Source: an uncultured virus (IMG/VR IMGVR_UViG_3300013121_000043) (lineage: Duplodnaviria; Heunggongvirae; Uroviricota; Caudoviricetes). From it: a stretch of 60,303 nucleotides of DNA. Each line of letters begins with the position of its first letter. Within the stretch, counting starts at the first letter, position 1. Both the position numbers and the translations under genes were made by a program. Positions 1,535 to 23,830 of the stretch are shown in pieces. The notes beneath the pieces are model-generated. The model did not search any database. It was not told the DNA's origin and saw only the letters and a program-made list of their open reading frames with translations. Where the stretch lies: the IMG/VR virus record IMGVR_UViG_3300013121_000043; one strand, 5' to 3'.

Positions 1535-1544
1535 GAGGCTAGCC

Positions 1545-1571
1545 TAAAATTTCCAGGGTTTTGCGGCAATA
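1545..1571 (+). promoter_or_regulatory. Cassette promoter motif TAAA-N16-GGCAATA (copy A)
   Basis: TAAA 1545-1548 and GGCAATA 1565-1571; same 16-nt spacing in five copies. Confidence 0.75.
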
Positions 1572-1657
1572 TCCTTTGCCGCTCCTCTAGCTCCCGGCCC
1601 TGACTCCGGGCAGGTTAAACTCAAAAGTAGATTTCTTCCTGCCCTGAGGAGACTGTC

Positions 1658-2218
1658 ATGGCCGAGGAGCAAAAATCGCTGCAGTGGTGGCGCGACCACG
1701 CTGCTGCGGCCCGCGAGATGGTGCACCAGCAACCGGAATCGCCAGAAGCATGCTGCCTTTTGGCCATGTCCCTGGGACGCTGTCGCATCATGGGAGGTGA
1801 GCTCGACTGGAAGTTTTCCGTCAAGCGTGCCATCTACGCCAGTGATGCGTTCTTCCATCTCATTGAGGAGTTGCTGGATCGGGTGATGGATGTGGCCTGG
1901 CTGCACCAGCTACTTCCTGAAGCGCTTCCCGATCTGACGGCGTTGATCATCTCCCGGCGGGTGGATGTCATGGCCGTGCAGTTGACTCTGGGCGAGGCGT
2001 TTGAACAGGCCAGCGAGCGCTGGCAGCGTCGGGTGGATAACATCCTGTCGCAGCTGGTCGACGCCCTGGCCGAACTGGATACAGAACTGTGGGCTGCCCT
2101 GCAGATCCTCCGGGATACGGGAGGACTGGTGGACGTGGCAGCCCAGCATCGTGACGAGCTGGCCAAGGGTTACCAGGAGCAGTGGTGGCTCTCGGGTCAG
2201 GAGATCGAGGGATCCTGA
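1658..2218 (+). CDS. Hypothetical helical protein (cassette A)
   Basis: 186 aa with GAGGAG RBS; followed by a hairpin plus T-run. Confidence 0.75.
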   Translation: MAEEQKSLQWWRDHAAAAREMVHQQPESPEACCLLAMSLGRCRIMGGELDWKFSVKRAIYASDAFFHLIEELLDRVMDVAWLHQLLPEALPDLTALIISRRVDVMAVQLTLGEAFEQASERWQRRVDNILSQLVDALAELDTELWAALQILRDTGGLVDVAAQHRDELAKGYQEQWWLSGQEIEGS

Positions 2219-2246
2219 TCGATCCCAATTACTTTCTGGTGTGTTA

Positions 2247-2295
2247 CCAAGACCCTGAACGATCATGGTGATCTTTCAGGGTCTTGGTGTTTTTT
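2247..2295 (+). terminator. Intrinsic terminator
   Basis: ACCAAGACCCTGAA...TTCAGGGTCTTGGT followed by GTTTTTT. Confidence 0.7.
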
Positions 2296-2302
2296 GGAGA
2301 TC

Positions 2303-2785
2303 ATGGTTCTCATGACCGAACGCATTAACAACGTGCTGACTCTGGCCCAGCGGTTCGTTCTGGTGGATCTAATCCGTCAGAACTGGGAACAGCTCAACAA
2401 GGAGCGCTGCACGGATAGGCAGGCCGCGGCCTTGCTGACCAAGGCGGCACGGGAGTATGTCTGCGCCGACGGCTCCGTCGGTGTGGACATGAAGGTGACC
2501 GCTGCCAACGTGCGGTCCCTGCTGCGGAACTGTCTGCATCACCCCAGGGTGATCAAGGACTGGGACCGCAGCATCGCGGCCGTGGGTCGGGAGTCGCAGC
2601 GGCAGCAGGCCGTCCGGGACCAGGAGCAGATCCAGCAGCTGCAGCAACTGGTTCGCAGTCTGGCGGAGCAGGTAACGCACCTGAGCCGCAACGACCAGCG
2701 GCTGACCGAGGTGTTGGACCAGCTGGTCCGACCGACGGGCAACACCCAGCCCCAGCCGACGACCGCAGGGAACGGACACGGCTGA
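2303..2785 (+). CDS. Hypothetical protein with C-terminal coiled coil (cassette A)
   Basis: Open frame with Q/L-rich heptads; start may be 2303 or 2312. Confidence 0.7.
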   Translation: MVLMTERINNVLTLAQRFVLVDLIRQNWEQLNKERCTDRQAAALLTKAAREYVCADGSVGVDMKVTAANVRSLLRNCLHHPRVIKDWDRSIAAVGRESQRQQAVRDQEQIQQLQQLVRSLAEQVTHLSRNDQRLTEVLDQLVRPTGNTQPQPTTAGNGHG

Positions 2786-2824
2786 AGCGCGCCCGGGGCA
2801 CGACCTCCGGGTCCGAAGGCCTCC

Positions 2825-3256
2825 ATGCCCCTGGACTCGTTAAGCTGGCGACAGCGTCTGGCGTTCCAGCACCCCATCCAGAGCCTGGCTGGACTGGAGC
2901 AGGATGACAAGCTCAGCTGGTCCCAGGAGGCACACTACAGGTGTGCCATGGCCATCTGGTACAACAAGGACGTGGACGGCTGGTTCTGGGTTGTCTGGGT
3001 AAAGATCCTGGGCAACAAGAAGCAGCGAAGCAACGGCCGCCGGCGACGACTGATCGCCAAGCTCACCCGCCTGGGTGAGAAGTTATTTATGCGGCCCAGC
3101 CTCCAGCTCCACGTCGGCGACGCCCGCCGACGTGAAACAGAGGTCGACCAGAGCGAGCTCTGCTACCTGGAGACCAGGCCACTCACGGAACCCGAGCTCG
3201 GGCTACTATACAGCCTCATGTTTCGAGAGGAGGCGACACCATCAGCTTCCAGGTAA
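2825..3256 (+). CDS. Hypothetical protein (cassette A)
   Basis: 143 aa, co-oriented within the operon. Confidence 0.65.
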   Translation: MPLDSLSWRQRLAFQHPIQSLAGLEQDDKLSWSQEAHYRCAMAIWYNKDVDGWFWVVWVKILGNKKQRSNGRRRRLIAKLTRLGEKLFMRPSLQLHVGDARRRETEVDQSELCYLETRPLTEPELGLLYSLMFREEATPSASR

Positions 3257-3675
3257 GATGGGCGCTGAGCCAGGATTTTCCCGGCATCCTGGAGCTACAG
3301 CGACGGCTTTACCAGCCGTGGTCCAAACACAGGCTGCGCAAGGTGATGTCCTGTCGCGACATGTTTACTCATGTCGCGATTAACCAGGCGCAGCTTGTGG
3401 TGGGCATGGTTATCTACAGGGTGCGGCCCAGGCACCTGCGTATCTTGCAGCTGGGGGTTCATCCAGACTGGCGACGCCAGGGTGTGGCCACCCAGCTCTG
3501 GCAGCGCGTGCTGTCCAAGCTGCATCCCGAGCGTCGCTCCCGACTCGTCGTCGTGGTACCCGAGCAGTGCGTGGATGTGCAGCTGTTCTTGCGACAGCAG
3601 AAGGTACGCGCCCTGGAACTGCTCTGTAACCGGGATACGGGGCAGGACGACATCTACTTCGAGTACCGGGTGTAA
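3241..3675 (+). CDS. RimI-like GNAT acetyltransferase (probable ATC start)
   Basis: GNAT motif A (LGVHPDWRRQGVATQL) plus planctomycete RimI-like segments (VRW...D, PW, VVGMVIY, SKL...RRSRL, QLFLR). GAGGAGG at 3227-3233 lies 7 nt before an in-frame ATC. Confidence 0.8.
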   Translation: MSFQVRWALSQDFPGILELQRRLYQPWSKHRLRKVMSCRDMFTHVAINQAQLVVGMVIYRVRPRHLRILQLGVHPDWRRQGVATQLWQRVLSKLHPERRSRLVVVVPEQCVDVQLFLRQQKVRALELLCNRDTGQDDIYFEYRV

Positions 3676-3684
3676 TGCCCGGGA

Positions 3685-3729
3685 GAAGAGGGAGTTCCAG
3701 ACAGAACTCCCCCTTCTTTTTTAGCTATC
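3685..3729 (+). terminator. Terminator plus cassette right-end motif (A)
   Basis: GAAGAGGGAGTTC-loop-GAACTCCCCCTTC, then TTTTTTAGCTATC. Confidence 0.8.
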
Positions 3730-3738
3730 CTGGATAGG

Positions 3739-3765
3739 TAAATTTTGGAGCCAGGGGTGGCAATA
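3739..3765 (+). promoter_or_regulatory. Cassette promoter motif (copy B)
   Basis: TAAA 3739-3742, N16, GGCAATA 3759-3765. Confidence 0.75.
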
Positions 3766-3836
3766 CAGCTTGAGAGGTGCGTTACCTCTTGTTACCGACA
3801 CCAACGGTGTGTGTCGTAACCTGGCGGAGGAGACGC

Positions 3837-4445
3837 ATGTGGCCCATGCGACGCCGCCGGCTGTTATTGACAGCCTTTGGCCTTGTAAAGGCCAAAGGCT
3901 GTCTCGATAAGCTGGCCGTAAGGCTGGCTTACGAAATGGCCGAAAAGTCAGCCGAGCAGTCGGGACTGCTCGGCTGGCTCGATCGTCTCGGCACAGACCG
4001 AGACGATCGCCTGGTTCACGAGCGGTTTACGGATGATACAAACCGCTCTTTTCTGTGGTCCGTTGAGGCCACAGACTGGCACTGGAACGTGCCGGAGTGG
4101 CTCAACAGTGCCGCTGGAAGTCTGGCACTGTCGAGCCAATGGATCCCGGCATGGATCCCGGCATGGATGCCGGGATACGCGCACGGAGGCTGGCGGCTTG
4201 AACCAAGGATGGTTCAAGATTTATTAGCTAGCCCTCCGGTAAGGACGCCGGAGCTCGTAGGCCTGGCCCGGGCGGCCTACGACGATGTCAGGGATGACTA
4301 CACCATGAACCCTGATCTTCTGGGCATCCTCGCAGATGCCCTGGAAGACCAGGACTGCTCCGGGTGGTCCGCAGCTTGTCGACTGCCCATCCCCTATTAC
4401 AGGGGGACGTGGGTGGTCGACTGGTTGCTCGGCTACCCACTGTAG
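3837..4445 (+). CDS. Planctomycete (Gemmataceae)-type family protein (cassette B)
   Basis: GGAGG RBS and ATG at 3837. The C-terminus LARAAYDD...ILADALEDQDC...CRLP.PYYRGTWVVDWLLG resembles the expanded Gemmata 'LPILADALEDAGC...RGCWVVDLLLG' domain. Confidence 0.75.
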   Translation: MWPMRRRRLLLTAFGLVKAKGCLDKLAVRLAYEMAEKSAEQSGLLGWLDRLGTDRDDRLVHERFTDDTNRSFLWSVEATDWHWNVPEWLNSAAGSLALSSQWIPAWIPAWMPGYAHGGWRLEPRMVQDLLASPPVRTPELVGLARAAYDDVRDDYTMNPDLLGILADALEDQDCSGWSAACRLPIPYYRGTWVVDWLLGYPL

Positions 4446-4452
4446 TTGTTTT

Positions 4453-4496
4453 GGTCCGGGGGTGTTCCTACCCCCGGGCCGTTTTTTTTAGCTATC
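4453..4496 (+). terminator. Terminator plus cassette right-end motif (B)
   Basis: GGTCCGGGGGT-loop-ACCCCCGGGCC, then a T-run and AGCTATC. Confidence 0.8.
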
Positions 4497-4528
4497 GGTT
4501 ATGCTGAAAACCAGAAAGGACCCGTGCC

Positions 4529-5095
4529 ATGCTTGCGCTACCGCCCTACCTTCTGGCCCAATACCGACAGTTCTGTCAGGACCAGCTTTACCACCTGGCC
4601 TACCAGCACGGCCGACCCGAGCAGCACAAGCAGGCCGCGGTTCCTGAAGCCGTTCCCGGGCTGACCGGCACGCTGTACGGCTCCCGCTCCGGCTGGTTAC
4701 TTCTGACCGTACCCAACGCCGTCGCCCGGGGCCTGTTTGATGCCCTGCACGAGCAGGGCGTGGAGCTACCCCGTAACCGGGATGGCAAGCTCAACGCGCA
4801 TATCTCGGTGATGAACCCCGGCGAGCTGGCCAGAATCGGTGGACTGGACAAGATCTCCGAGCGCGGCCACAGCTTCCGTTACAACCTGGGTGCCATCAAA
4901 ACGGTACGACCCACCACCTGGAATGGTGTCTCACGCGTCTGGTACGTCAGCATCACCAGTCCCGAGTTACAGGCGTTACGACGCTCCTACGGACTCTCCT
5001 CACTGCCCAACGAAAACAAGCACGAGTTTCACTGCACGTTTGCCATTCGCAAGCGTAAGGTGCTACACAGCAACGATGTGTGTAAGTCATGTTAG
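4529..5095 (+). CDS. 2H phosphoesterase superfamily protein
   Basis: Two HxS/T motifs (AHISV, FHCTF) about 77 aa apart; N-terminal leader ends in KQA. Confidence 0.8.
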   Translation: MLALPPYLLAQYRQFCQDQLYHLAYQHGRPEQHKQAAVPEAVPGLTGTLYGSRSGWLLLTVPNAVARGLFDALHEQGVELPRNRDGKLNAHISVMNPGELARIGGLDKISERGHSFRYNLGAIKTVRPTTWNGVSRVWYVSITSPELQALRRSYGLSSLPNENKHEFHCTFAIRKRKVLHSNDVCKSC

Positions 5096-5104
5096 ACTAC
5101 AGGT
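5091..5104 (+). promoter_or_regulatory. Putative late-type promoter GTTANACTACAG
   Basis: GTTAGACTACAGGT; near-identical copies at 44540, 54434 and 58911, and a variant at 7341. Confidence 0.55.
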
Positions 5105-6500: not shown

Positions 6501-6986
6501 ATGGCGGAGAAGATCCACCCGTTCGCGACGGCCAGCGCCAGTCCGTCTCTGTACAACCTCATCGATCTGTTTTTGCAGCAACACGGCACGGAGGCTGGCA
6601 CAGCCCAGTTCAAATCCTGGTTAGCTCACAACTACCCGGAGCGTCGCTTCAAGCGGGAGAGTATTCGTACCGCCATGTCGGTGCGCAAGCGTCGATTGCG
6701 CGAGTACCAGGAGATGACGCAGGAACATCCTCCCGGGCCGGCAGCAACAACCACGGTTACCGTACGCAGCCAGGATGTCTCGGAATCCGGCAACAGCGTG
6801 CCCGCGCTCTCCACCACGACCCTGACGGTGGCCGAATTGCGACAGGTCAAGGAACTGATTCCTGATGTGGCCCAGCTGGATACGCTCCAGCAGCAGGTCA
6901 CCACGGTCAGCCACATGGCCGAGCAGGTGGGTGGTCTGGACCGTCTGCGTGCTGCCGTGGCTGCACTGGTCGAATTGCGCCGCTGA
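6501..6986 (+). CDS. Hypothetical protein (planctomycete-like C-terminal motif)
   Basis: 161 aa ending ..MAEQVGGLDRLRAAVAALVELRR; AT-rich upstream region. Confidence 0.7.
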   Translation: MAEKIHPFATASASPSLYNLIDLFLQQHGTEAGTAQFKSWLAHNYPERRFKRESIRTAMSVRKRRLREYQEMTQEHPPGPAATTTVTVRSQDVSESGNSVPALSTTTLTVAELRQVKELIPDVAQLDTLQQQVTTVSHMAEQVGGLDRLRAAVAALVELRR

Positions 6987-7030
6987 TAGCTAAAGAAAAA
7001 CCCCGGGAGTAACGACTTGTTACTCCCGGG
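6985..7030 (-). terminator. Terminator plus cassette right-end motif (C, minus strand)
   Basis: Hairpin CCCGGGAGTAAC/GTTACTCCCGGG; the minus strand continues TTTTTCTTTAGCTATC. Confidence 0.7.
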
Positions 7031-7037
7031 AAAAACC

Positions 7038-7217
7038 CTAGCCGCGGAGCTCAAACTCCGCGGCTAGGGTTTTTAGTTGAAAGAGGAGCTGGTTGAGCTC
7101 AACCAGCTCCTCCTCAATCTCTTCCCGTTGTCGGCCGGTCGCGACCGACAACGAGAGGAGAGAGAGCATCCGGGCCCCTTCCAGGGCCCGGATCTCTCCG
7201 TAGATTTGAGGATCCAT
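7038..7217 (-). CDS. 59-aa protein not in the ORF track (cassette C)
   Basis: Minus-strand AGGAGG-N6-ATG. Translation MDPQIYGEIRALEGARMLSLLSLSVATGRQREEIEEELVELNQLLFQLKTLAAEFELRG*. Lies between the cassette promoter and terminator. Confidence 0.6.
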   Translation of the reverse strand: MDPQIYGEIRALEGARMLSLLSLSVATGRQREEIEEELVELNQLLFQLKTLAAEFELRG

Positions 7218-7297: not shown

Positions 7298-7324
7298 TAT
7301 TGCCCCACTTCGGTCTGTTTTTTA
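7298..7324 (-). promoter_or_regulatory. Cassette promoter motif (copy C, minus strand)
   Basis: Forward TATTGCC 7298-7304, N16, TTTA 7321-7324, which is TAAA-N16-GGCAATA on the minus strand. Confidence 0.75.
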
Positions 7325-15145: not shown

Positions 15146-15167
15146 CCTTCTTCCGGGAACCCGTCCC

Positions 15168-18100
15168 ATGAGTAGCTTTCTTGACGGGCTGACCCCGCCC
15201 GAACCCTCTCCGCTTCCCGAACTGGCCACGCCGCAACCCGCGGTAGTGCCCCCTGCCCCGGCGATCTCTCCCACGCCGGGTCCAGGGGTACTACCGCTGA
15301 GCCTGGCCAGCGACAGCGGCATCCCACCGCGGATGGACGATCCCGGGGCACGCAACGCCCTGGTCAACGCCCTGGCCCGGGCGCTCTCCCGCAATCCACG
15401 ACGCGGCTTCCGTCCCAGCCAGCCGCGGCCCCAGGGTGGCGGTGTTGAGAATGACGGTGCCCCGCCGGGCGTGACGCTACGCGATTTTGCCGACCCTCAT
15501 GCCGTGCGCTACGGCATCTACGACCGCGTCCTGGCCGCAGCGTTCAAGGTCCGTCCTGTGGAGAACTCGCGCTACCGACTGCAGCTGGGTGACATCTCCT
15601 GGGCCGAGCCGGCCGAGTTCAGCTACAAGCAGCAGAAAGAAGCGATCCTGGGTGGACGCTCCCTGCACCGTCGACTCAAGGGAACCTATCAGCTGGTGGA
15701 CAAGGCCACGGGCAAGACCGTGGACAGCCGCGATACCACCCTGGCCCACGTTCCCTACTACACTCACCGTGGTACCTTCATCCTCAACGGCACCGAGTAC
15801 ACCATGGGCCACCAGATGCGTCTGCGCTCGGGGGTGTACACGCGTGTCAAGGAATCGGGCGAGCTGGAGGTTCACTGGAACACCCTGCCCGGACGCGGAC
15901 TGTCCCATCGCTATCACCTGGAGCCGGAATCCGGTATCTTCAAGCTCAATATCGGCCAGGCCAACCTGCCACTGATGCCGCTGCTCAAGGCGATGGGCGT
16001 CTCGGACAAGGAGCTGCAGGCGGCCTGGGGCAAGGAGCTCTACCAGAAGAATCAGGAGCAGGATAACCCCAACCTGCTGGACAAGATCTACCAGCGTCTG
16101 GCCGGCAACCGGGGCAAGACGGGGCTGTCGCACGAGGATCGCCGCAAGTACGTGGTGGAACGGTTTCAGCAGATGGAGCTGGACCCGGAGGTGACCCAGC
16201 ACACCCTGGGGAAGCCGTTTACGCACATCACCAAGGACGCCATGCTGGCAGCGACCACCAAGCTGCTCAAGGTCTCTCGGGGCGAGGAGCGTAGCGATGA
16301 TCGCGACGATCTGACCTTCCAGCATTTTTATGGCCCCGAGGATCTCCTGGCCGAGCCGCTGGAGCGTAACGCCGTACCGCTGCAGAAGATGTTGTGGAAG
16401 GCCACCAACCATGGCAATCTGCGCTCCCTGGGCCCGGGACTGATGACCCCGGCGGTGCAGTCGGCTATCTTTGGGAGCGGACTGGCCGCGCCGGCGGAGG
16501 AGGTCAACGCCCTGGATATCTTTGATGCCCAGACCCGTGTCTCGCGCATGGGTCGTGGCTCCATTCAGGACATCGATGCCATTCCCGACAGCGCCCGACA
16601 GGTGCATCCCTCGCAGGTGGGTTTTATCGATCTGTCCCGTACCAGCGAGAGTCTGAAAATCGGCGTCGATCTGCGTCTGGCCCACCGGGCCCGGAAGGGC
16701 TCCGACGGCAAGATCTACACCCCACTTCTGGACCCCAAGACCGGGCGCGAGGTCTACCGCTCGCCCCAGGATATCGCCCGCAGCGTTCTGGCGTTTCCAG
16801 GAGAGCTGGATAGCAACCGGCCCATGGTGGTGGCCCTACAGCACGGACGCACGGTGTATGTTCCACGCAACAAGGTGGATTACGCCCTGCCCCACATGGA
16901 GAACGCCTTCTCGCCCATCACCAACCTGGTGGCGATGAAGTCGCAGGTCAACCCCCAGCGCGTCAGCATGGGCTCACGGTTTCTGATCCAGTCCCTGGCG
17001 TTGCGCGAGGCCGAGGCTCCGTTTGTCCAGCCGCGTGTGCCCGGAAGTGACAAATCGTTTTATGAGCATTACGGACGCCATGCCGGCAACGTCCACGCCC
17101 GCGAGGAGCAGGGTGGCCGCGTGGTCCGGGTCAGCCCGGAAGAGATTGTCGTTCGCTACGACGATGGCAAGGAAAAGACCCACGAGCTGTACAACCACCT
17201 GCCCTACAACCGCAAGTCGTTCATCCACAACACCCCGCTGGTGCGGCAGGGCGACCGGATCGAGCCAGGGCAGTTACTGGCCCACTCCAACTACACCGAC
17301 AAGACCGGCACCATCGCCATGGGCAAGAACCTGCGCGTGGCCTACCTGGCGTTCCCCGGTCCCGGCGGCGAGGCCAACTACGAGGACGCCTTCGTTCTCT
17401 CCGAATCGGCGGCACGCAAGCTGGAGTCAGAGCACGCCTACCAGCATGCCCAGGAGTGGGATGAGACCTACAAGCGCGGCAAGAAGAATTTCATCTCCAT
17501 CTTTCCCACCACCTTTGATCGCAAGAAGCTCGAGACCCTGGATGAGGACGGAGTGATCAAGCCCGGCACGGTGGTCAAGGAAGGGGATCCGCTGATCCTG
17601 GCGGTCAAGCAAAAGGAGCGAACCCACAAGCAGCTTCACGGCGGGCACAAGAGTGGCTGGTCGGATCACACCCAGCTGTGGGAGCATCACAGCGACGGTA
17701 TCGTCACCGACGTGTTCAAGTCCGACAAGGGGACCAACGTCGTCGTCAAGTCGTACATGCCCACCCAGGAGGCGGACAAGCTCTCGGGACGTCATGGAGA
17801 CAAGGGTGTGGTCCGTATCGTCAAGGACGACCAGATGCCCCACGACGAGAACGGTCAGCCGTTTGATATCATCGCCAACCCCCTGGGCGTGATCTCGCGA
17901 GGTAACCCCGGCCAGGTGGTGGAGGCGATTCTGGGCAAGATCACTGCCAAGACCGGGATTCCCTACAAGATCGATGACTTTGATGGGGCCAACGAGGACA
18001 TGATCGAGTGGGCGATGCGCGAGGCGGAAAAGCACGGTGTCTCCGATCTGGAGACCGTGATCGACCCCATGACCGGGCGCAAGATCCCCAACGTACTGAC

Positions 18101-19850
18101 CGGCTACCGCTACTACCTGAAACTGCACCACCTCAGCGAGTCCAAGGGCTCGGCGCGCGGCCTGGGCAGCTACACCGCCGAGGGGCTGCCGGCCCGTGGC
18201 TCCGAGGAGGGTCAGCAGGCCAAGAAGGTGGCGATGATGGACGTGTCGGCGCTGCTGTCGCACTCGGCACTGTCCGTACTGCGTGATAACAAGCTGGTGC
18301 GCGGCAACCAGAATCTCGAGTACTGGACCACGCTGATGTCGGGCAACCGCCCGGCCACGCCACCCGTACCGTTCATGTACGAGAAGTTTATCAACACCCT
18401 GCGTGGCTCGGGTATCAACGTGCAGCGCAAGGGCAATCAGCTCCATCTCATGGCTCTGAGCAACAAGCACCTGGAGGAGCTGGCCGGGGATCGTGAGCTG
18501 AAGAATGTCGAGACGGTGGACTGGAAGGATGGCATGAAGCCGATTCCCGGCGGTCTGTTTGACCCCGGTCTGACCGGCAGCCACGGAGGTAACCGCTGGG
18601 CCAAGATCACCCTGCATGAGCCGCTTCCCAACCCCGTGTTCGAGGAGCCGATTCGCCGCCTGCTCAACCTGACGCAGAAGCAGTTTGAAGCGGTCCTGGC
18701 CGGGGAGGAGAAGCTGGGCGAGCAGACCGGTCCCAGGGCGATCGCCCACGCCCTGGAAAAGATCGATCTGGACAAGGCGATCGAGCAGGCCCGGGCCGAC
18801 ATCGCCTCGGGACGCAAGACCTACCGCGATGCGGCCATCCGCCGCCTGGGCTACCTCAAAGGAGCCAAGAACACCAACACCCACCCGCGGGACTGGCTGC
18901 TCAAGGCCGTGCCCGTGCTGCCTCCCATCTTCCGACCGATCTCGATCATGCAGGGCAGTGGGGGTCAGCTGGTGGCTGATGCCAACCTGCTGTACAAGGA
19001 TCTGTTTGAAGCCAACCAGGTGCTGCGTGACATGTCCGGTCGCGTGGACGATCTGCGCGACGAGCGCCGTAACGTGTACAACGCCTTCAAGGCCGTGGTC
19101 GGCCTGGGCGACCCGGTGAACCCCAAGACCGCCGAGAAGAAGGCCCAGGGGTTACTGGCCCAGCTGCTGGGCAGCAGTCCCAAGCACTCCTGGCTACAGC
19201 AGAAGCTGATCGGCACGCCCGTCAACCTGGTCGGTCGCGCCGTGGCCACGCCGGACACCAACCTGTCGATGGACGAGCTGGGCATCCCCGAGAAGCAGGC
19301 ATGGACGGTGTACAGTCCGTTCATCGTCCGTAACCTGGTGCGCAAGGGTGTGGGTCGCACCCAGGCCCTGGAGTACGTGGAAAAGAAGCATCCCACGGCA
19401 CGCAAGGCGATGATCGAGGAGATGGAGGCCAGCCCGGTGATCATGACCCGGGCCCCGGTGCTGCACCGTTACGGTCACATGGCGTTCTGGCCCAAGCTGG
19501 TCAAGGGCGATACGCTGCGCACCAGTCCGCCGATCACCAAGGGTTATGGTCTGGACTACGACGGCGACACCATCAACTGGCATGTTCCCGTGGAGGAGGA
19601 GGCCCGACGCGAGGCCGCACTCAAGATGCTGCCCAGTCGTAACCTCTTTGCCGTGGCCGATTTCAAGTCTCCTGTCTACGCTCCAACCATGGAGTTTCTG
19701 GGTGGAGCCTACCGGCTGAGCACGGCCAAACCCAGCGGCGGTACACCCCGCGTCTTTGCCACCATGGCTGACTTCAAGCGGGCCTGGCAGGCCGGGGAAC
19801 TGGGTCCGGAGGACACCGTCCATATCGTGGATTCCTCTGCTAAAAAGTAA
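15168..19850 (+). CDS. rpoBC: Phage multisubunit RNA polymerase: beta fused to the N-terminal half of beta'
   Basis: Beta motifs GTFILNGTE, DKLSGRHGDKGV, NPLGVISRGNPGQ and YYLKLHH. Beta' motifs GGLFD, VPVLPPIFRP, TRAPVLHR and the catalytic DYDGD. Likely start is ATG 15168. Confidence 0.95.
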   Translation: MSSFLDGLTPPEPSPLPELATPQPAVVPPAPAISPTPGPGVLPLSLASDSGIPPRMDDPGARNALVNALARALSRNPRRGFRPSQPRPQGGGVENDGAPPGVTLRDFADPHAVRYGIYDRVLAAAFKVRPVENSRYRLQLGDISWAEPAEFSYKQQKEAILGGRSLHRRLKGTYQLVDKATGKTVDSRDTTLAHVPYYTHRGTFILNGTEYTMGHQMRLRSGVYTRVKESGELEVHWNTLPGRGLSHRYHLEPESGIFKLNIGQANLPLMPLLKAMGVSDKELQAAWGKELYQKNQEQDNPNLLDKIYQRLAGNRGKTGLSHEDRRKYVVERFQQMELDPEVTQHTLGKPFTHITKDAMLAATTKLLKVSRGEERSDDRDDLTFQHFYGPEDLLAEPLERNAVPLQKMLWKATNHGNLRSLGPGLMTPAVQSAIFGSGLAAPAEEVNALDIFDAQTRVSRMGRGSIQDIDAIPDSARQVHPSQVGFIDLSRTSESLKIGVDLRLAHRARKGSDGKIYTPLLDPKTGREVYRSPQDIARSVLAFPGELDSNRPMVVALQHGRTVYVPRNKVDYALPHMENAFSPITNLVAMKSQVNPQRVSMGSRFLIQSLALREAEAPFVQPRVPGSDKSFYEHYGRHAGNVHAREEQGGRVVRVSPEEIVVRYDDGKEKTHELYNHLPYNRKSFIHNTPLVRQGDRIEPGQLLAHSNYTDKTGTIAMGKNLRVAYLAFPGPGGEANYEDAFVLSESAARKLESEHAYQHAQEWDETYKRGKKNFISIFPTTFDRKKLETLDEDGVIKPGTVVKEGDPLILAVKQKERTHKQLHGGHKSGWSDHTQLWEHHSDGIVTDVFKSDKGTNVVVKSYMPTQEADKLSGRHGDKGVVRIVKDDQMPHDENGQPFDIIANPLGVISRGNPGQVVEAILGKITAKTGIPYKIDDFDGANEDMIEWAMREAEKHGVSDLETVIDPMTGRKIPNVLTGYRYYLKLHHLSESKGSARGLGSYTAEGLPARGSEEGQQAKKVAMMDVSALLSHSALSVLRDNKLVRGNQNLEYWTTLMSGNRPATPPVPFMYEKFINTLRGSGINVQRKGNQLHLMALSNKHLEELAGDRELKNVETVDWKDGMKPIPGGLFDPGLTGSHGGNRWAKITLHEPLPNPVFEEPIRRLLNLTQKQFEAVLAGEEKLGEQTGPRAIAHALEKIDLDKAIEQARADIASGRKTYRDAAIRRLGYLKGAKNTNTHPRDWLLKAVPVLPPIFRPISIMQGSGGQLVADANLLYKDLFEANQVLRDMSGRVDDLRDERRNVYNAFKAVVGLGDPVNPKTAEKKAQGLLAQLLGSSPKHSWLQQKLIGTPVNLVGRAVATPDTNLSMDELGIPEKQAWTVYSPFIVRNLVRKGVGRTQALEYVEKKHPTARKAMIEEMEASPVIMTRAPVLHRYGHMAFWPKLVKGDTLRTSPPITKGYGLDYDGDTINWHVPVEEEARREAALKMLPSRNLFAVADFKSPVYAPTMEFLGGAYRLSTAKPSGGTPRVFATMADFKRAWQAGELGPEDTVHIVDSSAKK

Positions 19851-19867
19851 GGCGAAGCCTGGCAATA
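19841..19867 (+). promoter_or_regulatory. Cassette promoter motif (copy D)
   Basis: TAAA 19841-19844, N16, GGCAATA 19861-19867; overlaps the end of the RNAP gene. Confidence 0.75.
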
Positions 19868-19903
19868 TCGGGTAGGTCCCGGGTTCCTCATTGGAGGGGG
19901 AAC

Positions 19904-20104
19904 ATGTTCCAGGAGTCGTTACAGTCTCTGCTTGAGGCGCTGTTGCCCGAAGACAGAGACTGGGCAGAGCTGTTGGTACAGTGTAATCCGCAGTCAGCCC
20001 GGGAGGAGATCCAGGAGCGACTGCGGGCCATGTACTGGCGTCCGCCCGTTTTCCAGCATGAGGATAAAAATGAGAAAAGAAACGTCGGAAGGGTCACAGC
20101 CTGA
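19904..20104 (+). CDS. Small hypothetical protein (cassette D)
   Basis: 66 aa with GGAGG RBS. Confidence 0.55.
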   Translation: MFQESLQSLLEALLPEDRDWAELLVQCNPQSAREEIQERLRAMYWRPPVFQHEDKNEKRNVGRVTA

Positions 20105-20549
20105 GCTGTGGCGTGAGGAAATGCCGTTCACGCAGGCCAACGTCTGTCTGTCGACAGAGCTGGTCGACCTTTTGCTTACTTATGGTAAGCAAATGGGACT
20201 CGATCTCACAGCCACGATGACGGTGGTGCTGAACGAGCACTACCGGGATATCCTGGGAGAGATCGTGGATCGGGTTGGCATGTTCCAGGCCGCCGGACAG
20301 ATCGCCCGGGTGCAGCTGTTCCACGAGCTGTCCCGGCAGGAGGAAGACATCCTCAATCTGGCCACGCCCGCCAGGCTGGACGAGGACGAGCCTTTTGGCA
20401 TCGAGCGGCTGAGTGAGTTCGTCCGACTCCTCGCCGACATAAAAAAAGAAAGAGACGTACCAGCGCGTCTCACGGCAAAGGCGCTACTGGCCTATGCCAT
20501 TCGCTGTCGTAGCATCGTCCACCAGCTCCTGATGTTGCAGAGAAAGTAG
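20070..20549 (+). CDS. Hypothetical protein (cassette D)
   Basis: GAGGA RBS and ATG at 20070; 159 aa. Confidence 0.65.
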   Translation: MRKETSEGSQPELWREEMPFTQANVCLSTELVDLLLTYGKQMGLDLTATMTVVLNEHYRDILGEIVDRVGMFQAAGQIARVQLFHELSRQEEDILNLATPARLDEDEPFGIERLSEFVRLLADIKKERDVPARLTAKALLAYAIRCRSIVHQLLMLQRK

Positions 20550-20554
20550 TGTTA

Positions 20555-20602
20555 CACGGCTGTTCCCGCCCAGGGGAACAGCCGTGCTCTTTTTTAGCCA
20601 TC
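20555..20602 (+). terminator. Terminator plus cassette right-end motif (D)
   Basis: CACGGCTGTTCCC/GGGAACAGCCGTG, then TTTTTTAGCCATC. Confidence 0.8.
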
Positions 20603-20659
20603 CCACCGTTGCTTTATCATGGAGGCAGAGGTTTCTACTCCGACTTTGAGGGCCGTACC

Positions 20660-21421
20660 GTGGGTCTCAACCGTACACTTTTGACGCTGGCGCAGCGGCG
20701 TTTGCAAAAACAGGCTGTCTCTCCCCCGGGCGGTGCTCCCCCCGGAGGTGCGCCTCCGATGGATCCGGCCATGATGGGCGGTGGTGGCATGCCACCCATG
20801 GATCCGGCCATGATGGGTGGCGGTGGCATGCCGCCGATGGACCCGGCCATGATGGGTGGTATGCCACCCATGGATCCAGCCATGATGGGCGGTATGCCTC
20901 CTCCTCCGCCTCCGCCACCCGCTCCGGGTGGGCCTAGTGGCGCGCCCGATATCGCCAGTATCGTCAGTCAGGCGGTCCAGCAGGCGATGCAGAACAACGG
21001 CGGTATCGCCGGGCCGGCCCAGGCCGCGGGTGGCAAGCCACCCAAGCCCGACATCAACATGGTGGCCACCGACGTCTTCCAGATCAAGAAGCTCCTGCAG
21101 GATCTGTATAACCGCAACGGCTGGCCGCTACCGGAGGGGATTCTCGACGGTCCCGGACGCGATCCCATGACCGGCATGCCCACGGCCTCCCCCATGGGCG
21201 GCTCGGATCCTGCGGGCAGTCCACCGCCCGGACCGCCTCCGGAGTCGGCCATCAGTCCGATCGGGCCCATGGAAGGAGCATTCCCGACCCCTGGTCAGGG
21301 CAAGAGCGCCCAGGCCAACCACCCTCCGGTCGGCAGTAGCTTCGCACCCACGGAAAGTTTTGCCTCGCGGGCCCAGGCCGTAGCCCGTCTGTTCCAGCGG
21401 CGTAAACAGCATGTGGCTTGA
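20660..21421 (+). CDS. Pro/Gly/Met-rich low-complexity protein
   Basis: Likely GTG start at 20660; leader ends in QKQA; tandem PPMDPAMMGG(GG)M repeats. Confidence 0.7.
   Translation: MGLNRTLLTLAQRRLQKQAVSPPGGAPPGGAPPMDPAMMGGGGMPPMDPAMMGGGGMPPMDPAMMGGMPPMDPAMMGGMPPPPPPPPAPGGPSGAPDIASIVSQAVQQAMQNNGGIAGPAQAAGGKPPKPDINMVATDVFQIKKLLQDLYNRNGWPLPEGILDGPGRDPMTGMPTASPMGGSDPAGSPPPGPPPESAISPIGPMEGAFPTPGQGKSAQANHPPVGSSFAPTESFASRAQAVARLFQRRKQHVA
20753..20900 (+). repeat. Coding tandem repeat (4 x PPMDPAMMGG[GG]M, 33-39 bp units)
   Basis: Repeated ATGGA(T/C)CC(G/A)GCCATGATGGG units. Confidence 0.9.
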
Positions 21422-21659
21422 ACTTCATGATCGGCTGACGGCACCCCTGCGCATACCCGCCACGCGTGTGGTGGTCTATGACGAGCACCAGAACCCGGTG
21501 GCGTTCCTGCTCCAGCTGGGTCCTGGGCATCTGCGCATCTGTCGGGTGGGTGAGCCAGAGTTTGACGAACTGAGGCGGCTGCACGGCATCCAGCAGACCG
21601 TGGTGGTGACTCAGCACGATCTGGCCAAGCTGCCGCCCCTGCCGGTACGGGGGAAGTAA
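21411..21659 (+). CDS. Hypothetical protein
   Basis: 82 aa; abuts the beta' C-half gene. Confidence 0.7.
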   Translation: MWLELHDRLTAPLRIPATRVVVYDEHQNPVAFLLQLGPGHLRICRVGEPEFDELRRLHGIQQTVVVTQHDLAKLPPLPVRGK

Positions 21660-23579
21660 ATGCTCAAGGGAACGGCCGGACAGCTGATCTTACAGAGTGT
21701 GCTGCCCGAGGACATGCGCCAGCCCGATCGTGTGCTGGACAAGAAGGGTATGAGCAAGCTGCTGACCGAGCTGGCCCAGAAGCATCCGGACCAGTACAGC
21801 CAGGTACTGCACCAGCTGATGCGCGTGTCCCACCAGGCGGCCTACTGGACCAACGCCCAGTCGTTTGGTCTGAAGCACTTGCGCGGCGATCCCAGCGTGC
21901 GTAAACTGCGTCAGGAGCTGCAACAGCAGACGGAAGCGATCTGGAATAACAGCCGGCTATCGGACAGGGAGAAGGAGGCCAGGATTGTTACTCTGTCCTC
22001 TGAATATCAGAGCAAGATCGAAGCCGCCACGTTTGCAGCCGCGCAGGCTGCCCAGAACCCTCTTGCCGAACAGGTCGTCTCTGGATCACGTGGTAATAAA
22101 ACCCAGCTCAATACCCTACTTGGAGCACCGGTACTTTATACCGATCATAACGGCGACCCCATCCCCTTCCCTGTATTACGGTCTTTTTCCGAAGGTCTGC
22201 GGCCATATGAGTATTATGCTAGCACCTTCGGCGCTCGCTCCGGTCTGATTGATACCAAGCTCTCCGTGGCCGACACCGGCTTTCTCAGCAAGCAGTTTGT
22301 CCAGGCGGCACACCGTCTCCTGGTCTCGGCCATTGATGCCGACAAGGAAGACGATACCGTACGCGGCTTCCCCGTGTCGGTGGACGATCCCGACAACGAG
22401 GGTGCGTACCTGGCCCAGCCCGTGGGTCCCTACAAGCGCAATACGCTCCTGACACCGGCCATTCTCAGCGATCTGCAAAAACAGGGAGTCAAGCGTCTGC
22501 TGGTACGCTCGCCCACGGTGGGTGGACCTGCCGACGGGGGTGTCTACAGCCGTGACGTGGGGATGCGCGAAAAGGGACGACCGGCTCCCCTGGGCGATTT
22601 TGTCGGCGTGGCCGCGGCCCAGGCTGCCTCGGAGGCGCTGACCCAGGGTGCCCTTAGCTCCAAGCACTCCGCCGGCGTGGCCGGAGCCAACAAGTCAATG
22701 ACCGGGTTTCATCTCATCAACCAGCTCATTCAGGTGCCCAAGACGTTCACCGGCGGGGCCAGCCACGCCCGACTGGACGGCAAGGTCGAGAAGATCGTGC
22801 CGGCTGCCCAGGGCGGTCACTACGTTCGCGTGGGTGGTGTGGAACATTACGTTGGTCAGGGGTTTGACATCACCGTCAAGCCTGGCGACGAGGTGGAGGC
22901 GGGCGACGTCCTCAGCGATGGGATTCCCAACCCTGCCGAGGTGGTGCGCTACAAGGGGATCGGCGAGGGTCGTCGCTACTTCACGCAAACAATGCTGGAT
23001 GCCTACAGGCGCTCGGGCATCACGGCGCACCGCCGTAACCTGGAGCTGATTGCGCGCGGGCTGATCAACCACGTCCGACTCAAGGATGAGTTTGATGAGT
23101 TCGTCCCCGAGGATGTCATGCAGTACAGCCACCTGGAACATCGCTGGCAGCCGCGCGAGGGACACCAGGTGGTCGATCCACGCCAGGCCCGTGGCTGGTA
23201 TCTGGAAAAGCCGGTGCTGCACTATTCGGTCGGTACGCCGATCCGTCCCAGCGTGATCAAGAACCTGCAGGAGTTCAACATCAAGCAGATCGCGGCCCAC
23301 CGCGAGCCGCCCCCGTTTGAACCCGAGATGGTCCGTGGTCTGGAAAACCTCACCCACGACCCGGACTGGCAGACACGCTTCCTGGGCAGCTACGTCAAGA
23401 AGAACCTGCTCAAGGGAGTTCATCGTGGCGATGTCTCCGACGAGCGTGGCACCAGTTATGTCCCGTCGCTGACCCGTGCCGTGGACTTCAACAAGTGGCC
23501 GCCGGTCAAGGGTTACTCGACCGAGGAGCATGGTCCGGTCAAGCGACCGATCCATCTCTCTCCGGAAGTGGACAGCTAA
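21660..23579 (+). CDS. rpoC: RNA polymerase beta' C-terminal half (bridge helix, trigger loop)
   Basis: SGSRGN; SFSEGL..YEYYASTFGARSGLIDT....DTGFLSK (bridge helix); GVAAAQAASEALTQGALSSKHSAG (trigger loop); VEAGDVLSDG. Confidence 0.93.
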   Translation: MLKGTAGQLILQSVLPEDMRQPDRVLDKKGMSKLLTELAQKHPDQYSQVLHQLMRVSHQAAYWTNAQSFGLKHLRGDPSVRKLRQELQQQTEAIWNNSRLSDREKEARIVTLSSEYQSKIEAATFAAAQAAQNPLAEQVVSGSRGNKTQLNTLLGAPVLYTDHNGDPIPFPVLRSFSEGLRPYEYYASTFGARSGLIDTKLSVADTGFLSKQFVQAAHRLLVSAIDADKEDDTVRGFPVSVDDPDNEGAYLAQPVGPYKRNTLLTPAILSDLQKQGVKRLLVRSPTVGGPADGGVYSRDVGMREKGRPAPLGDFVGVAAAQAASEALTQGALSSKHSAGVAGANKSMTGFHLINQLIQVPKTFTGGASHARLDGKVEKIVPAAQGGHYVRVGGVEHYVGQGFDITVKPGDEVEAGDVLSDGIPNPAEVVRYKGIGEGRRYFTQTMLDAYRRSGITAHRRNLELIARGLINHVRLKDEFDEFVPEDVMQYSHLEHRWQPREGHQVVDPRQARGWYLEKPVLHYSVGTPIRPSVIKNLQEFNIKQIAAHREPPPFEPEMVRGLENLTHDPDWQTRFLGSYVKKNLLKGVHRGDVSDERGTSYVPSLTRAVDFNKWPPVKGYSTEEHGPVKRPIHLSPEVDS

Positions 23580-23603
23580 AAAAACACCAGAAGTGTGGCA
23601 ATA
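23577..23603 (+). promoter_or_regulatory. Cassette promoter motif (copy E)
   Basis: TAAA 23577-23580 (includes the rpoC stop codon), N16, GGCAATA 23597-23603. Confidence 0.75.
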
Positions 23604-23607
23604 CTCT

Positions 23608-23823
23608 GTGAGGGAGTTAGCACACACCGCTCCCTCGCCCCGGTGGGATAATTATCCTGTCCCACCGGGGATTTGCCCTTCCTACTGCAGCGTCCCTCAC
23701 GGCGCAAGGCAGTAGGCGGGCAGCGGCCGGACACGACACCGTAGTCCGTAAGGACTGTGTCCGGCCGCCTATTTTCTGCAGACCAGGAGCCACCCACGGT
23801 GGTAGCTCCTGGTCTTTTTTTTT
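23608..23823 (+). ncRNA. Putative structured ncRNA of about 215 nt (cassette E)
   Basis: No ATG between promoter and terminator; five consecutive hairpins, including AGTCC-GTAA-GGACT (GNRA loop). Confidence 0.55.
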
Positions 23824-23830
23824 AGCTATC
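23781..23830 (+). terminator. Terminator plus cassette right-end motif (E)
   Basis: GACCAGGAGC...GCTCCTGGTC, then T9 and AGCTATC. Confidence 0.8.

What the first reader, a model, noticed from the sequence alone, without database searches (positions are those of the whole stretch)
1540..23830. Family of five promoter-to-terminator cassettes with inverted-repeat ends inserted in the virion backbone
Seen: five units, A 1540-3729, B 3733-4496, C 7327-6985 (minus strand), D 19839-20602 and E 23571-23830. Each opens with TAAA-N16-GGCAATA, with spacing exactly 16 in all five, and closes with a hairpin, a T-run and TAGC(T/C)ATC. The right end is the reverse complement of the left-end context (E: GACAGCTAAAAAAA vs TTTTTTTAGCTATC; B: GATAGGTAAA). 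Cargo is mutually unrelated: a GNAT, a host-like domain, tiny ORFs, or no ORF. Ends overlap the stop codons or last codons of neighbouring genes (6984-6986, 19841-19850, 23577-23579). Inference: these are self-contained, shuffled early-expression units, a moron/cassette system with defined ends, possibly mobilised by a recombinase or by recombination between ends.
Basis: partly seen in the sequence, partly recalled or inferred. Interest (0 to 1): 0.88.

Follow-up and report, generated by a model that had tools for sequence, protein, structure and literature searches.

The report
Promoter-to-terminator accessory gene cassettes in phage
A large uncultured phage that encodes its own RNA polymerase carries five small, self-contained transcription units, each opening with the same unusual promoter-like motif and closing with the same tagged terminator, which hold fast-changing accessory genes or a small RNA wedged between conserved genes, much like the known "morons" and T4 regulatory cassettes.

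Summary
TAAA-N16-GGCAATA occurs 5 times (0 expected) and TTTAGCYATC 5 times (0.13 expected). They pair as five promoter-to-terminator units on the right strands, each ending in a stable hairpin plus a T-run.

The element is a phage with an integrase and a multisubunit RNA polymerase: a beta+beta'N fusion and a separate beta'C.

Cassettes D and E sit at junctions that are compact in about half of roughly 100 relatives (47 of 97 and 59 of 101) and hold other inserts in the rest. The D cargo has no homologue in any relative.

The same architecture (CTAAA-N16-GKCAWWA, then a hairpin, a T-run and TAGCTAT) recurs as 8 ordered pairs in five related contigs, with different cargo.

Cargo is three ORFans plus a GNAT (A), a protein with a widespread C-terminal domain (B), a 59-aa ORF (C), two ORFans (D) and a 219-nt structured RNA (E, z -10.3).

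The inverted-repeat ends are only 6-9 nt, mostly an A/T run. They match as well between cassettes as within them, and there are no target duplications. Nothing supports a dedicated recombinase.

Best reading: moron/PeSL-like autonomous accessory units with lineage-specific promoter and terminator signals. This is a new variant of a known kind. The conserved box after the T-run is unexplained.

The parts
1545..1571 (+). P1-A: promoter-like motif TAAA-N16-GGCAATA opening unit A
1658..3675 (+). Cargo of A: ORFs 1658-2218, 2294-2785 and 2825-3256 (no family) and a GNAT acetyltransferase whose frame is open from 3259. An internal terminator-like hairpin lies at 2245-2295.
3684..3729 (+). T1-A: hairpin (-19 kcal/mol), T-run and TAGCTATC box
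3739..3765 (+). P1-B, 10 nt after T1-A (a composite terminator/promoter junction)
3837..4445 (+). Cargo of B: a 202-aa protein. The whole protein has no relatives, but its C-terminal ~70 aa are shared with 346 other cluster representatives.
4452..4496 (+). T1-B: hairpin (-25.6 kcal/mol), 8 T and TAGCTATC
7298..7324 (-). P1-C on the minus strand, diverging from the SNF2 helicase gene (7377-9299)
7038..7217 (-). Cargo of C: a 59-aa ORF with an AGGAGG ribosome-binding site
6985..7075 (-). Two tandem terminators of C: a bidirectional hairpin at 7028-7075, then hairpin 7001-7031 plus TTTTTCTTTAGCTATC. This second one overlaps the TGA stop (6984-6986) of the convergent gene 6501-6986.
19841..19867 (+). 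P1-D, lying in the last three codons and stop of the RNAP beta+beta'N gene (15051-19850)
19904..20549 (+). Cargo of D: overlapping ORFs 19904-20104 (66 aa) and 20070-20549 (159 aa). No homologue in 148 related loci. The 159-aa ORF was also searched against the 5.8-billion-cluster database and found only itself.
20555..20602 (+). T1-D: hairpin (-27.8 kcal/mol), T-run and TAGCCATC
20609..20624 (+). P2-D: TTGCTTTATCATGGAG, a -10-like element of the backbone upstream of conserved gene x1 (about 20660-21421)
23577..23603 (+). P1-E. Its TAA is the stop codon of the beta'C gene (21660-23579).
23604..23822 (+). Cargo of E: a 219-nt highly structured RNA made of four hairpins plus the terminator. It matches no Rfam family.
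23780..23830 (+). T1-E: hairpin (-25.2 kcal/mol), 9 T and TAGCTATC
23837..23852 (+). P2-E: TTGTTTTATCATGAAG upstream of conserved gene N (23899-26418)
1410..1439 (+). Sixth, degenerate P1-like site: GCTAAAAA-N14-CGCTATCT (3 mismatches), in the integrase/cassette A spacer
15051..23579 (+). Conserved backbone into which D and E are set: RNAP beta+beta'N, x1, x2 and beta'C

Best explanation
The five units are autonomous transcription units for accessory cargo. Each has a promoter of a phage-lineage-specific class (P1: gCTAAA-N16-GGCAATA, laid out like a -35/-10 pair). Each carries a short cargo: ORFans, a GNAT, or a ~220-nt structured RNA. Each ends in a factor-independent terminator (hairpin plus T-run) followed by a conserved box (T1: TAGCYATC, often TAGCTATCAGC).

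The units sit in the short spacers between conserved genes, so tightly that their end motifs supply or overlap the neighbour's stop codon. The terminator insulates the flanking conserved genes. Downstream of D and E a separate backbone -10-like element (P2) restarts transcription of the next core gene.

Shown here: the motifs, their pairing, the hairpins, the absence of the D cargo from relatives, the variable occupancy of the two junctions, and the recurrence of the architecture in related phages.

Inferred: that P1 fires and T1 stops transcription; that P1 is read by the phage's own polymerase or a phage factor rather than by the host sigma-70 holoenzyme; that the cargo is expressed early or independently of the surrounding genes; and that cassettes are gained and lost by recombination in these spacers.
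For: Motifs and pairing:
- Both motifs are far above chance, and all five pair in the right order and strand.
- Relaxed P1 patterns find only these five sites in 60 kb, all within the first 24 kb.
- All five hairpins are stable.
- By my own terminator finder, 5 of the 7 terminators with stems of 13 or more pairs carry the box. One search adds one more boxless terminator-like hairpin at 2245-2295.

Synteny:
- tblastn of 18 window proteins against 148 related loci finds the core genes widely: RNAP beta+beta'N in 125 loci, beta'C in 148 and N in 128. The D cargo is found in 0.
- The beta+beta'N to beta'C interval is 1150 nt or less in 47 of 97 unique relatives, against 1809 nt here.
- The beta'C to N spacer is 150 nt or less in 59 of 101, against 319 nt here. 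The other relatives carry inserts of up to 6.8 kb at this junction and up to about 7 kb at the other.

Recurrence in relatives:
- CTAAA-Nx-G[GT]CA[AT][AT] peaks at spacers 15-16 (9 and 10 hits, against 2-6 at other spacers).
- 8 of 12 such sites in relatives are followed on the same strand, within 271-3302 nt, by a T-run plus AGCYAT (L003, L071, L072, L073 four times, L122).
- L139 has a variant pair starting 13 nt after the beta'C stop.
- L001 has TAAA-N15-GGCAATA overlapping the beta'C stop.
- In L071 the same beta'C|N junction holds a 2-kb cassette with a tRNA-Asn and ORFans.

Cargo:
- The B protein and the 159-aa ORF of D find only themselves among 5.8 billion clusters.
- The E RNA folds at -128.4 kcal/mol, z -10.3.

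P1 compared with other promoters:
- P1 differs from the near-consensus sigma-70 sites next to the integrase gene (TTGACA-16-TACAAT, 11 of 12).
- In the cultured relative Arash, the polymerase subunits and a sigma factor were found in virions by mass spectrometry (passages of PMC10585845).
Against: - There is no transcript evidence. No RNA run holds the phage.
- Only D and E could be compared with relatives. The sites of A, B and C lie outside the fetched loci.
- Most inserts at the same junctions in other relatives lack a strong intrinsic terminator: 7 of 42 filled beta'C|N gaps have one, and none of those lies on the + strand within 250 nt of N. The two-ended architecture is therefore confined to a sublineage.
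- Only 7 of 138 strong terminators in relatives carry the box.
- The function of the TAGCYATC box is not explained by a plain intrinsic terminator.
- The host, and the polymerase that reads P1, are unknown. No sigma-factor domain was found in the 56 window ORFs scanned.
- GC content of D and E (57.1% and 57.5%) is only modestly below the flanking genes (61-66%) and close to the window mean of 59.3%.
Confidence: 0.7

Rival explanations
1. PeSL-type mobile regulatory cassettes. The conserved end motifs (P1 and T-run+TAGCTATCAGC) serve as short homologies, and recombination between them swaps, deletes or circularises cargo, as shown for T4-type phages. This adds a mobility mechanism to the best explanation rather than replacing it.
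For: - The A|B junction is a composite terminator/promoter: T1-A and P1-B lie 10 nt apart. The same arrangement occurs in L073 (9512/9527) and L139 (13093/13101).
- The 20-mer TTTTTCTTTAGCTATCAGCG is identical in the window (unit C) and in L073. The L073 polymerase is only about 52% identical, and the flanks are unrelated.
- Different cargo occupies the same junction in the window, L071, L139 and L001.
- PeSLs are described as promoter plus stem-loop motifs that flank ORFans and mediate indels and mini-circles (PMC2839356 abstract and section 13; PMC4122927 abstract).
Against: - The shared stretches are only 12-20 nt, and conservation by function explains them equally well.
- No pair of close genomes was available to show a crossover at the motifs.
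- The laid contigs gave only identical short fragments, with no joint across a cassette and no circular junction.
- The promoter is not sigma-70-like, unlike PeSLs.
Confidence: 0.25
2. A site-specific mobile element family (integron-cassette-like, MITE-like or IS-like) whose inverted-repeat ends are recognised by a recombinase such as the integrase at 45-1136.
For: - Short inverted matches exist at the ends: 8-9 nt in D and E, and 13 of 14 in E allowing one mismatch.
- A tyrosine recombinase is encoded nearby.
- ORF 2294-2785 has a weak partial hit to DEDD_Tnp_IS110 (E 0.0017; 18.6 bits against a cut-off of 29; only the last third of the domain).
Against: - The inverted matches are mostly homopolymer, and they are as good between different cassettes as within one.
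- There are no target-site duplications.
- The sequence before each hairpin, read by eye in the alignment, shows no inverse core complementary to the box, as an attC site would have.
- Every unit has its own promoter, unlike integron cassettes.
- Cassettes share no internal sequence.
- The integrase has only the generic phage-integrase and SAM-like domains.
- The IS110-like hit is below threshold, and the ORF is only 163 aa.
Confidence: 0.04
3. Ordinary operon punctuation. P1 and T1 are simply this phage's regular promoters and terminators, and the units are ancestral genes rather than insertions. The apparent cassettes would then reflect compact gene packing.
For: - The sites of A, B and C could not be compared with relatives.
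- T1-type boxes also follow a conserved gene in one relative: in L012 the box lies between x2 and beta'C.
- GC content of the units is close to the window mean.
Against: - The D cargo is absent from all 148 related loci, while both of its neighbours are conserved and adjacent in many of them.
- The beta'C|N spacer is 150 nt or less in 59 of 101 relatives.
- The long conserved gene arrays in the window (7377-19850 and 24-60 kb) contain no P1 or T1.
Confidence: 0.12
4. The TAGCYATC box is not part of the terminator. Instead it is a DNA site for a protein (a roadblock or regulator that makes termination efficient or conditional), or part of a restart promoter for the downstream gene.
For: - The box lies after the T-run, so it is downstream duplex DNA at the point of RNA release.
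- It is kept across diverged phages while the hairpins differ.
- In D and E a -10-like TATCAT lies exactly 16 nt after TTTAGC. TTTAGC-N16-TAAACT precedes the SNF2 gene.
- Half-site-like ATAGC/GCTAT palindromes occur in the integrase/A spacer.
Against: - After A, B and C no -10-like hexamer follows at that spacing, and C has no downstream gene on its strand.
- In L071 and L003 the TATAAT lies 3 nt after the box. In L012 and L073 the start codon follows the box within 6-11 nt.
- No candidate binding protein was identified.
Confidence: 0.2

Closest known systems
Morons of lambdoid and other temperate phages (the concept of Juhala, Hendrix and colleagues, 2000; recalled, not read here)
   Same: An extra gene with its own promoter and terminator is set between two genes that are adjacent in related phages. 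The cargo is unrelated to its neighbours and differs between phages.
   Different: - Here all units share one non-sigma-70-like promoter motif and one tagged terminator.
- One unit carries only a structured RNA.
- Two units are set inside the phage's own RNA polymerase gene cluster.
- Expression from a prophage has not been shown.
PeSL regulatory cassettes of T4-type phages (PMC2839356 abstract and section 13; PMC4122927 abstract)
   Same: Repeated promoter plus stem-loop motifs flank ORFans in plastic regions, and occasionally lie inside core modules. They insulate early ORFan expression from neighbouring genes. The A|B junction here is a composite terminator/promoter of that type.
   Different: - PeSL promoters match the host sigma-70 consensus, and the motif is a single intergenic composite.
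- Here the two motifs lie at opposite ends of each unit, and the promoter is non-canonical.
- A conserved box follows the T-run.
- Recombination between motifs and mini-circles has not been shown here.
Promoters read by phage multisubunit RNA polymerases (AR9 and phiKZ; passages of PMC5312081)
   Same: The phage encodes its own beta/beta'-type polymerase. A short, phage-specific, highly conserved motif precedes a defined class of genes.
   Different: - AR9 early promoters are one contiguous AT-rich block, AAATATATATTAT-(6N)-G, and late ones are AACA-(6N)-TA/G.
- P1 is bipartite with a 16-nt spacer, more like a sigma-type -35/-10 pair.
- Which polymerase reads P1 is unknown.
Integron gene cassettes
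   Same: Small units of unrelated cargo are arrayed next to a tyrosine recombinase, with a hairpin-forming element at the 3' end.
   Different: Integron cassettes are promoterless and end in attC sites with inverse core sequences. Here each unit has a promoter, the hairpins are plain terminators without inverse cores, and the units are scattered rather than arrayed.

Membership tests
Moron | Own promoter and own terminator bracketing the extra gene | tested here: inconclusive
   Sequence motifs with promoter-like geometry and stable hairpin/T-run terminators bracket all five units. No transcript ends are available.
Moron | Lies between genes that are adjacent in related phages | tested here: met
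   Met for D and E only. The D cargo is found in 0 of 148 loci. 47 of 97 and 59 of 101 relatives have compact junctions. A-C were not testable with the loci fetched.
Moron | Base composition distinct from the neighbours | tested here: inconclusive
   D is 57.1% and E 57.5% GC, against 61-66% in the flanking genes and a window mean of 59.3%.
Moron | Expressed independently of the phage's lytic programme (for example from the prophage) | not testable with these tools
   No RNA run holds the phage.
PeSL cassette (T4-type phages) | Host sigma-70-like early promoter | tested here: not met
   P1 is gCTAAA-N16-GGCAATA. None of the five sites appears among the sigma-70-type consensus matches.
PeSL cassette (T4-type phages) | Promoter and stem-loop combined in one intergenic motif | tested here: inconclusive
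   True only at the A|B junction in the window, and at L073 9512/9527 and L139 13093/13101. In C, D and E the two motifs lie at opposite ends of the unit.
PeSL cassette (T4-type phages) | Associated with ORFans and plastic regions | tested here: met
PeSL cassette (T4-type phages) | Recombination between motifs producing indels or mini-circles | not testable with these tools
   No close relative was found. The laid contigs gave only identical fragments with no joints at the ends.
Integron cassette | attC site with inverse core sites flanking an imperfect hairpin; promoterless cargo | tested here: not met
   Read by eye in the alignment, no conserved sequence precedes the hairpins. Every unit carries P1.
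MITE/IS-like element | Terminal inverted repeats specific to each copy, plus target-site duplication | tested here: not met
   Inverted matches are 6-9 nt and equal in cross-pairings. No significant flanking direct repeats were found.
Intrinsic (factor-independent) terminator | GC-rich hairpin directly followed by a T-run | tested here: met
   All five ends.

The most novel reading that the evidence does not exclude
P1 and the T-run+TAGCTATC box form an orthogonal transcription 'punctuation' read by the phage's own, possibly virion-delivered, multisubunit RNA polymerase and a partner factor. The box would be a sequence-specific termination or roadblock signal. Cargo that carries both marks would be instantly expressible in any phage of the lineage, so the marks double as crossover points that let cassettes move between genomes and between junctions.
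Probability: 0.2. Interest if true: 0.65.

Novelty: new variant of a known kind. Interest (0 to 1): 0.45.

Why it matters
The phage belongs to a very large family that is known almost only from metagenomes. One search found 1552 beta'C relatives, on contigs of up to about 225 kb. The family encodes a beta/beta'-type RNA polymerase, and no promoter or terminator of this family came up in my reading: the Arash paper holds neither word, and I ran no search aimed at this question.

The two motifs give concrete, testable candidates for its transcription signals. They also mark where accessory genes and a small RNA are plugged into the conserved polymerase and virion gene cluster.

If the box after the T-run proves to be functional, it would be an unusual sequence-specific addition to an intrinsic terminator. 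If it does not, the finding is a clean example of the known moron/PeSL principle in a new lineage.

Tried and rejected
- **Whole genome:** none is held for the window.
- **Close relatives by single protein:** beta'C gave nothing in viral contigs. The D cargo gave nothing, and the B cargo gave one weak 68-aa match.
- **Nucleotide searches:** blastn of E and of 1140-7400 against 50,697 phage records found no match. blastn of the five cassettes against 148 related loci found no match.
- **RNA families:** Rfam gave 0 hits at gathering thresholds over the whole window. For E, only sub-threshold chance hits appeared (best 17.5 bits against a threshold of 80). The window has no tRNA.
- **Defence families:** PADLOC gave no hit for 11 proteins, the eight cassette ORFs and three neighbouring genes.
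- **Sequencing runs:** no RNA holder was listed. Four DNA runs hold 5-10% of the sampled words. Laying them gave only short identical or unrelated fragments, with no contig bridging a cassette, no empty-site allele and no circular junction. This is no evidence on expression, habitat or mobility.
- **Host:** ten related contigs in MAG bins of various phyla give no reliable host. The ESM Atlas places the B protein near clusters named SMI1/KNR4, mostly from Planctomycetota, at score 0.91, which is a lead only. NCBIfam gave no family for B or for ten of its relatives. My recalled idea that B carries a planctomycete repeat-companion domain found no support in NCBIfam.
- **Sigma-54 reading of P1:** rejected by eye, because no GG-N10-GC register is kept in the five sites.
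- **TTTAGC as a general -35 box:** it fits D, E and the SNF2 promoter region, but not A, B, C or the relatives.
- **Exact window P1 in relatives:** one chance-like hit at N16 and one plausible hit at N15 in L001.

Full report
**1. The observation**

TAAA-N16-GGCAATA occurs five times in the 60,303-base window, at 1545+, 3739+, 7324-, 19841+ and 23577+. None of 100 dinucleotide-preserving shuffles gave a match. TTTAGCYATC also occurs five times, ending at 3729+, 4496+, 6985-, 20602+ and 23830+, against 0.13 expected.

On each strand a promoter-like site is followed by exactly one terminator site. This gives units of 2185, 758, 340, 762 and 254 nt. Each right end is a stable hairpin (-19 to -27.8 kcal/mol) followed by 6-9 T and then AGCYATC. 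Relaxed versions of the left motif find only these five sites, and none lies in the 24-60 kb part of the window. One further degenerate site lies at 1410-1439.

The inverted-repeat claim is the weak part. Exact inverted matches between the two ends of a unit are 7, 6, 6, 8 and 9 nt, mostly A/T run plus GC. Left ends match the right ends of other units just as well. There are no flanking direct repeats.

**2. What the element is**

The window is 59.3% GC and comes from a 122,303-base contig. It encodes:
- a tyrosine integrase (45-1136, minus strand);
- a 2H phosphoesterase;
- an SNF2 helicase (7377-9299);
- a multisubunit RNA polymerase made of a 1599-aa beta+beta'N fusion (15051-19850) and a 639-aa beta'C (21660-23579);
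- virion proteins further on.

The nearest cultured phages are Vibrio phages D69, D181 and D148 and Salmonella phage Arash, at about 31% identity over 88% of the fusion protein. In Arash, the beta and beta' subunits and a sigma factor were detected in virions by mass spectrometry (passages of PMC10585845).

The beta'C protein has 1552 relatives at E 0.001 or better among the 8000 candidates scored, on contigs of up to about 225 kb. I fetched 148 loci around them, 120 of them unique.

**3. Cassettes against backbone**

I ran tblastn of 18 window proteins against the 148 loci. The results were:
- RNAP beta+beta'N: 125 loci.
- The two small genes between the polymerase genes: x1 in 46 loci, x2 in 42.
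- beta'C: 148 loci.
- The next gene, N (23899-26418): 128 loci.
- The cargo of D: 0 loci.

Among unique relatives the interval from beta+beta'N to beta'C is 1150 nt or less in 47 of 97, against 1809 nt here. The beta'C-to-N spacer is 150 nt or less in 59 of 101, against 319 nt here. The remaining relatives carry inserts of up to 6.8 kb at this junction and up to about 7 kb at the other. D and E therefore occupy two hot spots for accessory DNA.

In empty-site relatives the beta'C|N spacer holds a conserved extended -10-like element (cTGyTACGATa). It is present in 28 of 101, against a shuffle mean of 8.0 and a maximum of 19. In the window, a related 16-mer (TTGYTTTATCATGRAG) follows the terminators of both D and E. 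The cassettes are thus set between the upstream gene's stop codon and the backbone's own promoter-like element.

The sites of A, B and C lie outside the fetched loci and could not be compared.

**4. The architecture recurs in relatives**

The exact window promoter motif is essentially absent from relatives. A looser form, CTAAA-Nx-G[GT]CA[AT][AT], peaks at spacers 15-16 (9 and 10 hits, against 2-6 at other spacers).

T-run+TAGCTATC after hairpins occurs in L003, L071, L011, L072, L073, L122 and L139, and after only a weak 5-bp stem in L012. TTTTAGCTATC is found 8 times in 1.97 Mb, against a median of 1 for 630 permutations of the box.

Of the 12 promoter-like sites in relatives, 8 are followed on the same strand within 271-3302 nt by the terminator box: L003, L071, L072, L073 four times, and L122. 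L139 has a variant pair that starts 13 nt after the beta'C stop, and a second promoter-like site overlaps its box. L001 has TAAA-N15-GGCAATA overlapping the beta'C stop.

Aligning 13 left ends and 16 right ends gives gCTAAA-N16-GkCAwta and TTTTTTTTAGCTATCaGc.

Cargo differs everywhere:
- a tRNA-Asn plus ORFans in L071 and L003;
- a 377-aa ORFan and short structured regions in L073 and L072 (z -5.1 and -4.3);
- in L139, a 345-aa ORFan in the P1-to-box unit, and a P-loop kinase-like protein further down the same beta'C|N gap, after the box and the second P1-like site.

One detail stands out. The 20-mer TTTTTCTTTAGCTATCAGCG at the end of unit C is identical in L073, where a minus-strand unit abuts the stop codon of the polymerase gene. 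The flanks are unrelated, and the polymerases are about 52% identical.

The architecture is nevertheless a sublineage trait. Only 7 of 138 strong terminators in relatives carry the box, and only 7 of 42 filled beta'C|N gaps hold a strong terminator at all.

**5. Cargo in the window**

- **A:** three ORFs without family and a GNAT acetyltransferase. There is also an internal terminator-like hairpin without the box at 2245-2295.
- **B:** a 202-aa protein. As a whole it has no relative other than itself. Its last ~70 residues match 346 other cluster representatives (E from 3e-8 up to the 0.001 cut-off) of unknown family. The ESM Atlas places it near clusters named SMI1/KNR4, which is a lead only.
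- **C:** a 59-aa ORF.
- **D:** two overlapping ORFans. The 159-aa one was searched and found only itself.
- **E:** no credible ORF, but a 219-nt RNA of four hairpins plus the terminator. Its minimum free energy is -128.4 kcal/mol against -78.4 for shuffles, z -10.3. It matches no Rfam family.

No defence-system family matched any cargo.

**6. Mechanism**

The simplest account is that P1 is a promoter and T1 a terminator. Each unit would then be an insulated transcription unit for accessory cargo, placed in the spacers of a conserved gene array, with a backbone promoter-like element (P2) resuming expression downstream.

P1 has the geometry of a sigma-type -35/-10 pair. It differs from the near-consensus sigma-70 sites beside the integrase gene (TTGACA-16-TACAAT). 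It also differs from the contiguous AT-rich early promoters of AR9-type phage polymerases (passages of PMC5312081). Its spacing is kept in diverged relatives while the downstream box drifts (GGCAATA, GTCATTA, GTCATAT, GGCATAA). I take this as mild evidence that a phage-encoded component reads it. This is inference, and the host is unknown.

The box after the T-run is not explained by a plain intrinsic terminator. It lies downstream of the expected release point and is conserved while the hairpins are not. Within the window it marks all five P1-unit terminators and none of the three other strong terminator-like hairpins (2245-2295, about 5573 and 7028-7075). Possible roles are a protein roadblock site, part of a restart promoter, or a crossover point. 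None was testable here.

**7. Comparison with known systems and verdict**

The units behave like morons, and most closely like the PeSL cassettes of T4-type phages: repeated promoter and stem-loop motifs that flank ORFans, insulate them, and mediate shuffling.

They differ in four ways: the non-canonical promoter, the placement of the two motifs at opposite ends of each unit, the conserved post-terminator box, and an RNA-only cargo.

They do not meet the defining features of integron cassettes or of elements with terminal inverted repeats. Recombination at the conserved ends remains possible but untested.

I rate this a real, well-defined regulatory architecture and a new variant of a known kind.

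Noticed in passing
window 3258-3675: The GNAT reading frame is open and matches the Pfam domain from 3259 (Acetyltransf_1 positions 5-91 of 116). The first ATG/GTG/TTG in that frame is at 3343, and the ATG at 3258 is one base out of frame. This could be a frameshift, an assembly slip or an unusual start codon.
   Followed up: partly
window 1282-1545: Four copies of AATAGCCTGWCA (1282, 1372, 1513, 1523) and an 11-bp palindrome, ATAGCCGCTAT (1427-1437), lie between the integrase gene and unit A. Two near-consensus sigma-70 promoters point toward the integrase (1194-1167 and 1397-1370). These may be operators or attP arm sites.
   Followed up: partly
window 15051-23579 and related loci: The phage RNA polymerase is a beta+beta'N fusion plus a separate beta'C, with two small conserved genes (x1, x2) between them. 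Many relatives carry intein or homing-endonuclease domains in beta'C (PF05203, PF01079, PF14528).
   Followed up: partly
window 20609-20624 and 23837-23852; beta'C|N spacers of relatives: A second promoter-like class was seen: an extended -10-like element upstream of conserved genes. It reads TTGYTTTATCATGRAG here and cTGyTACGATa in 28 of 101 relatives.
   Followed up: partly
window 7028-7075: A perfect 19-bp-stem bidirectional terminator (A-run, hairpin, T-run; -36.9 kcal/mol) lies between the convergent gene 6501-6986 and unit C.
   Followed up: yes
window 36542-39157, 39584-41251, 52239-53996: Three paralogous large virion proteins share an arabinofuranosidase-B-like catalytic domain and PHROG 10356.
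   Followed up: no
window 29975-31792: A 605-aa ORF has weak Hint and intein-splicing hits below the Pfam cut-offs.
   Followed up: no
window 2294-2785: The 163-aa ORF in unit A has a sub-threshold hit to the last third of the DEDD_Tnp_IS110 domain (E 0.0017; 18.6 bits against a cut-off of 29). This is probably coiled-coil similarity.
   Followed up: no
L071 12298-12370; L003 12799-12872: A tRNA-Asn (GTT) gene lies inside the cassette that fills the beta'C|N junction in two related contigs.
   Followed up: yes
window 19904-20549: Unit D holds two ORFs in different frames that overlap by 35 nt (19904-20104 and 20070-20549). The source's own gene call agrees with the 159-aa second ORF.
   Followed up: partly
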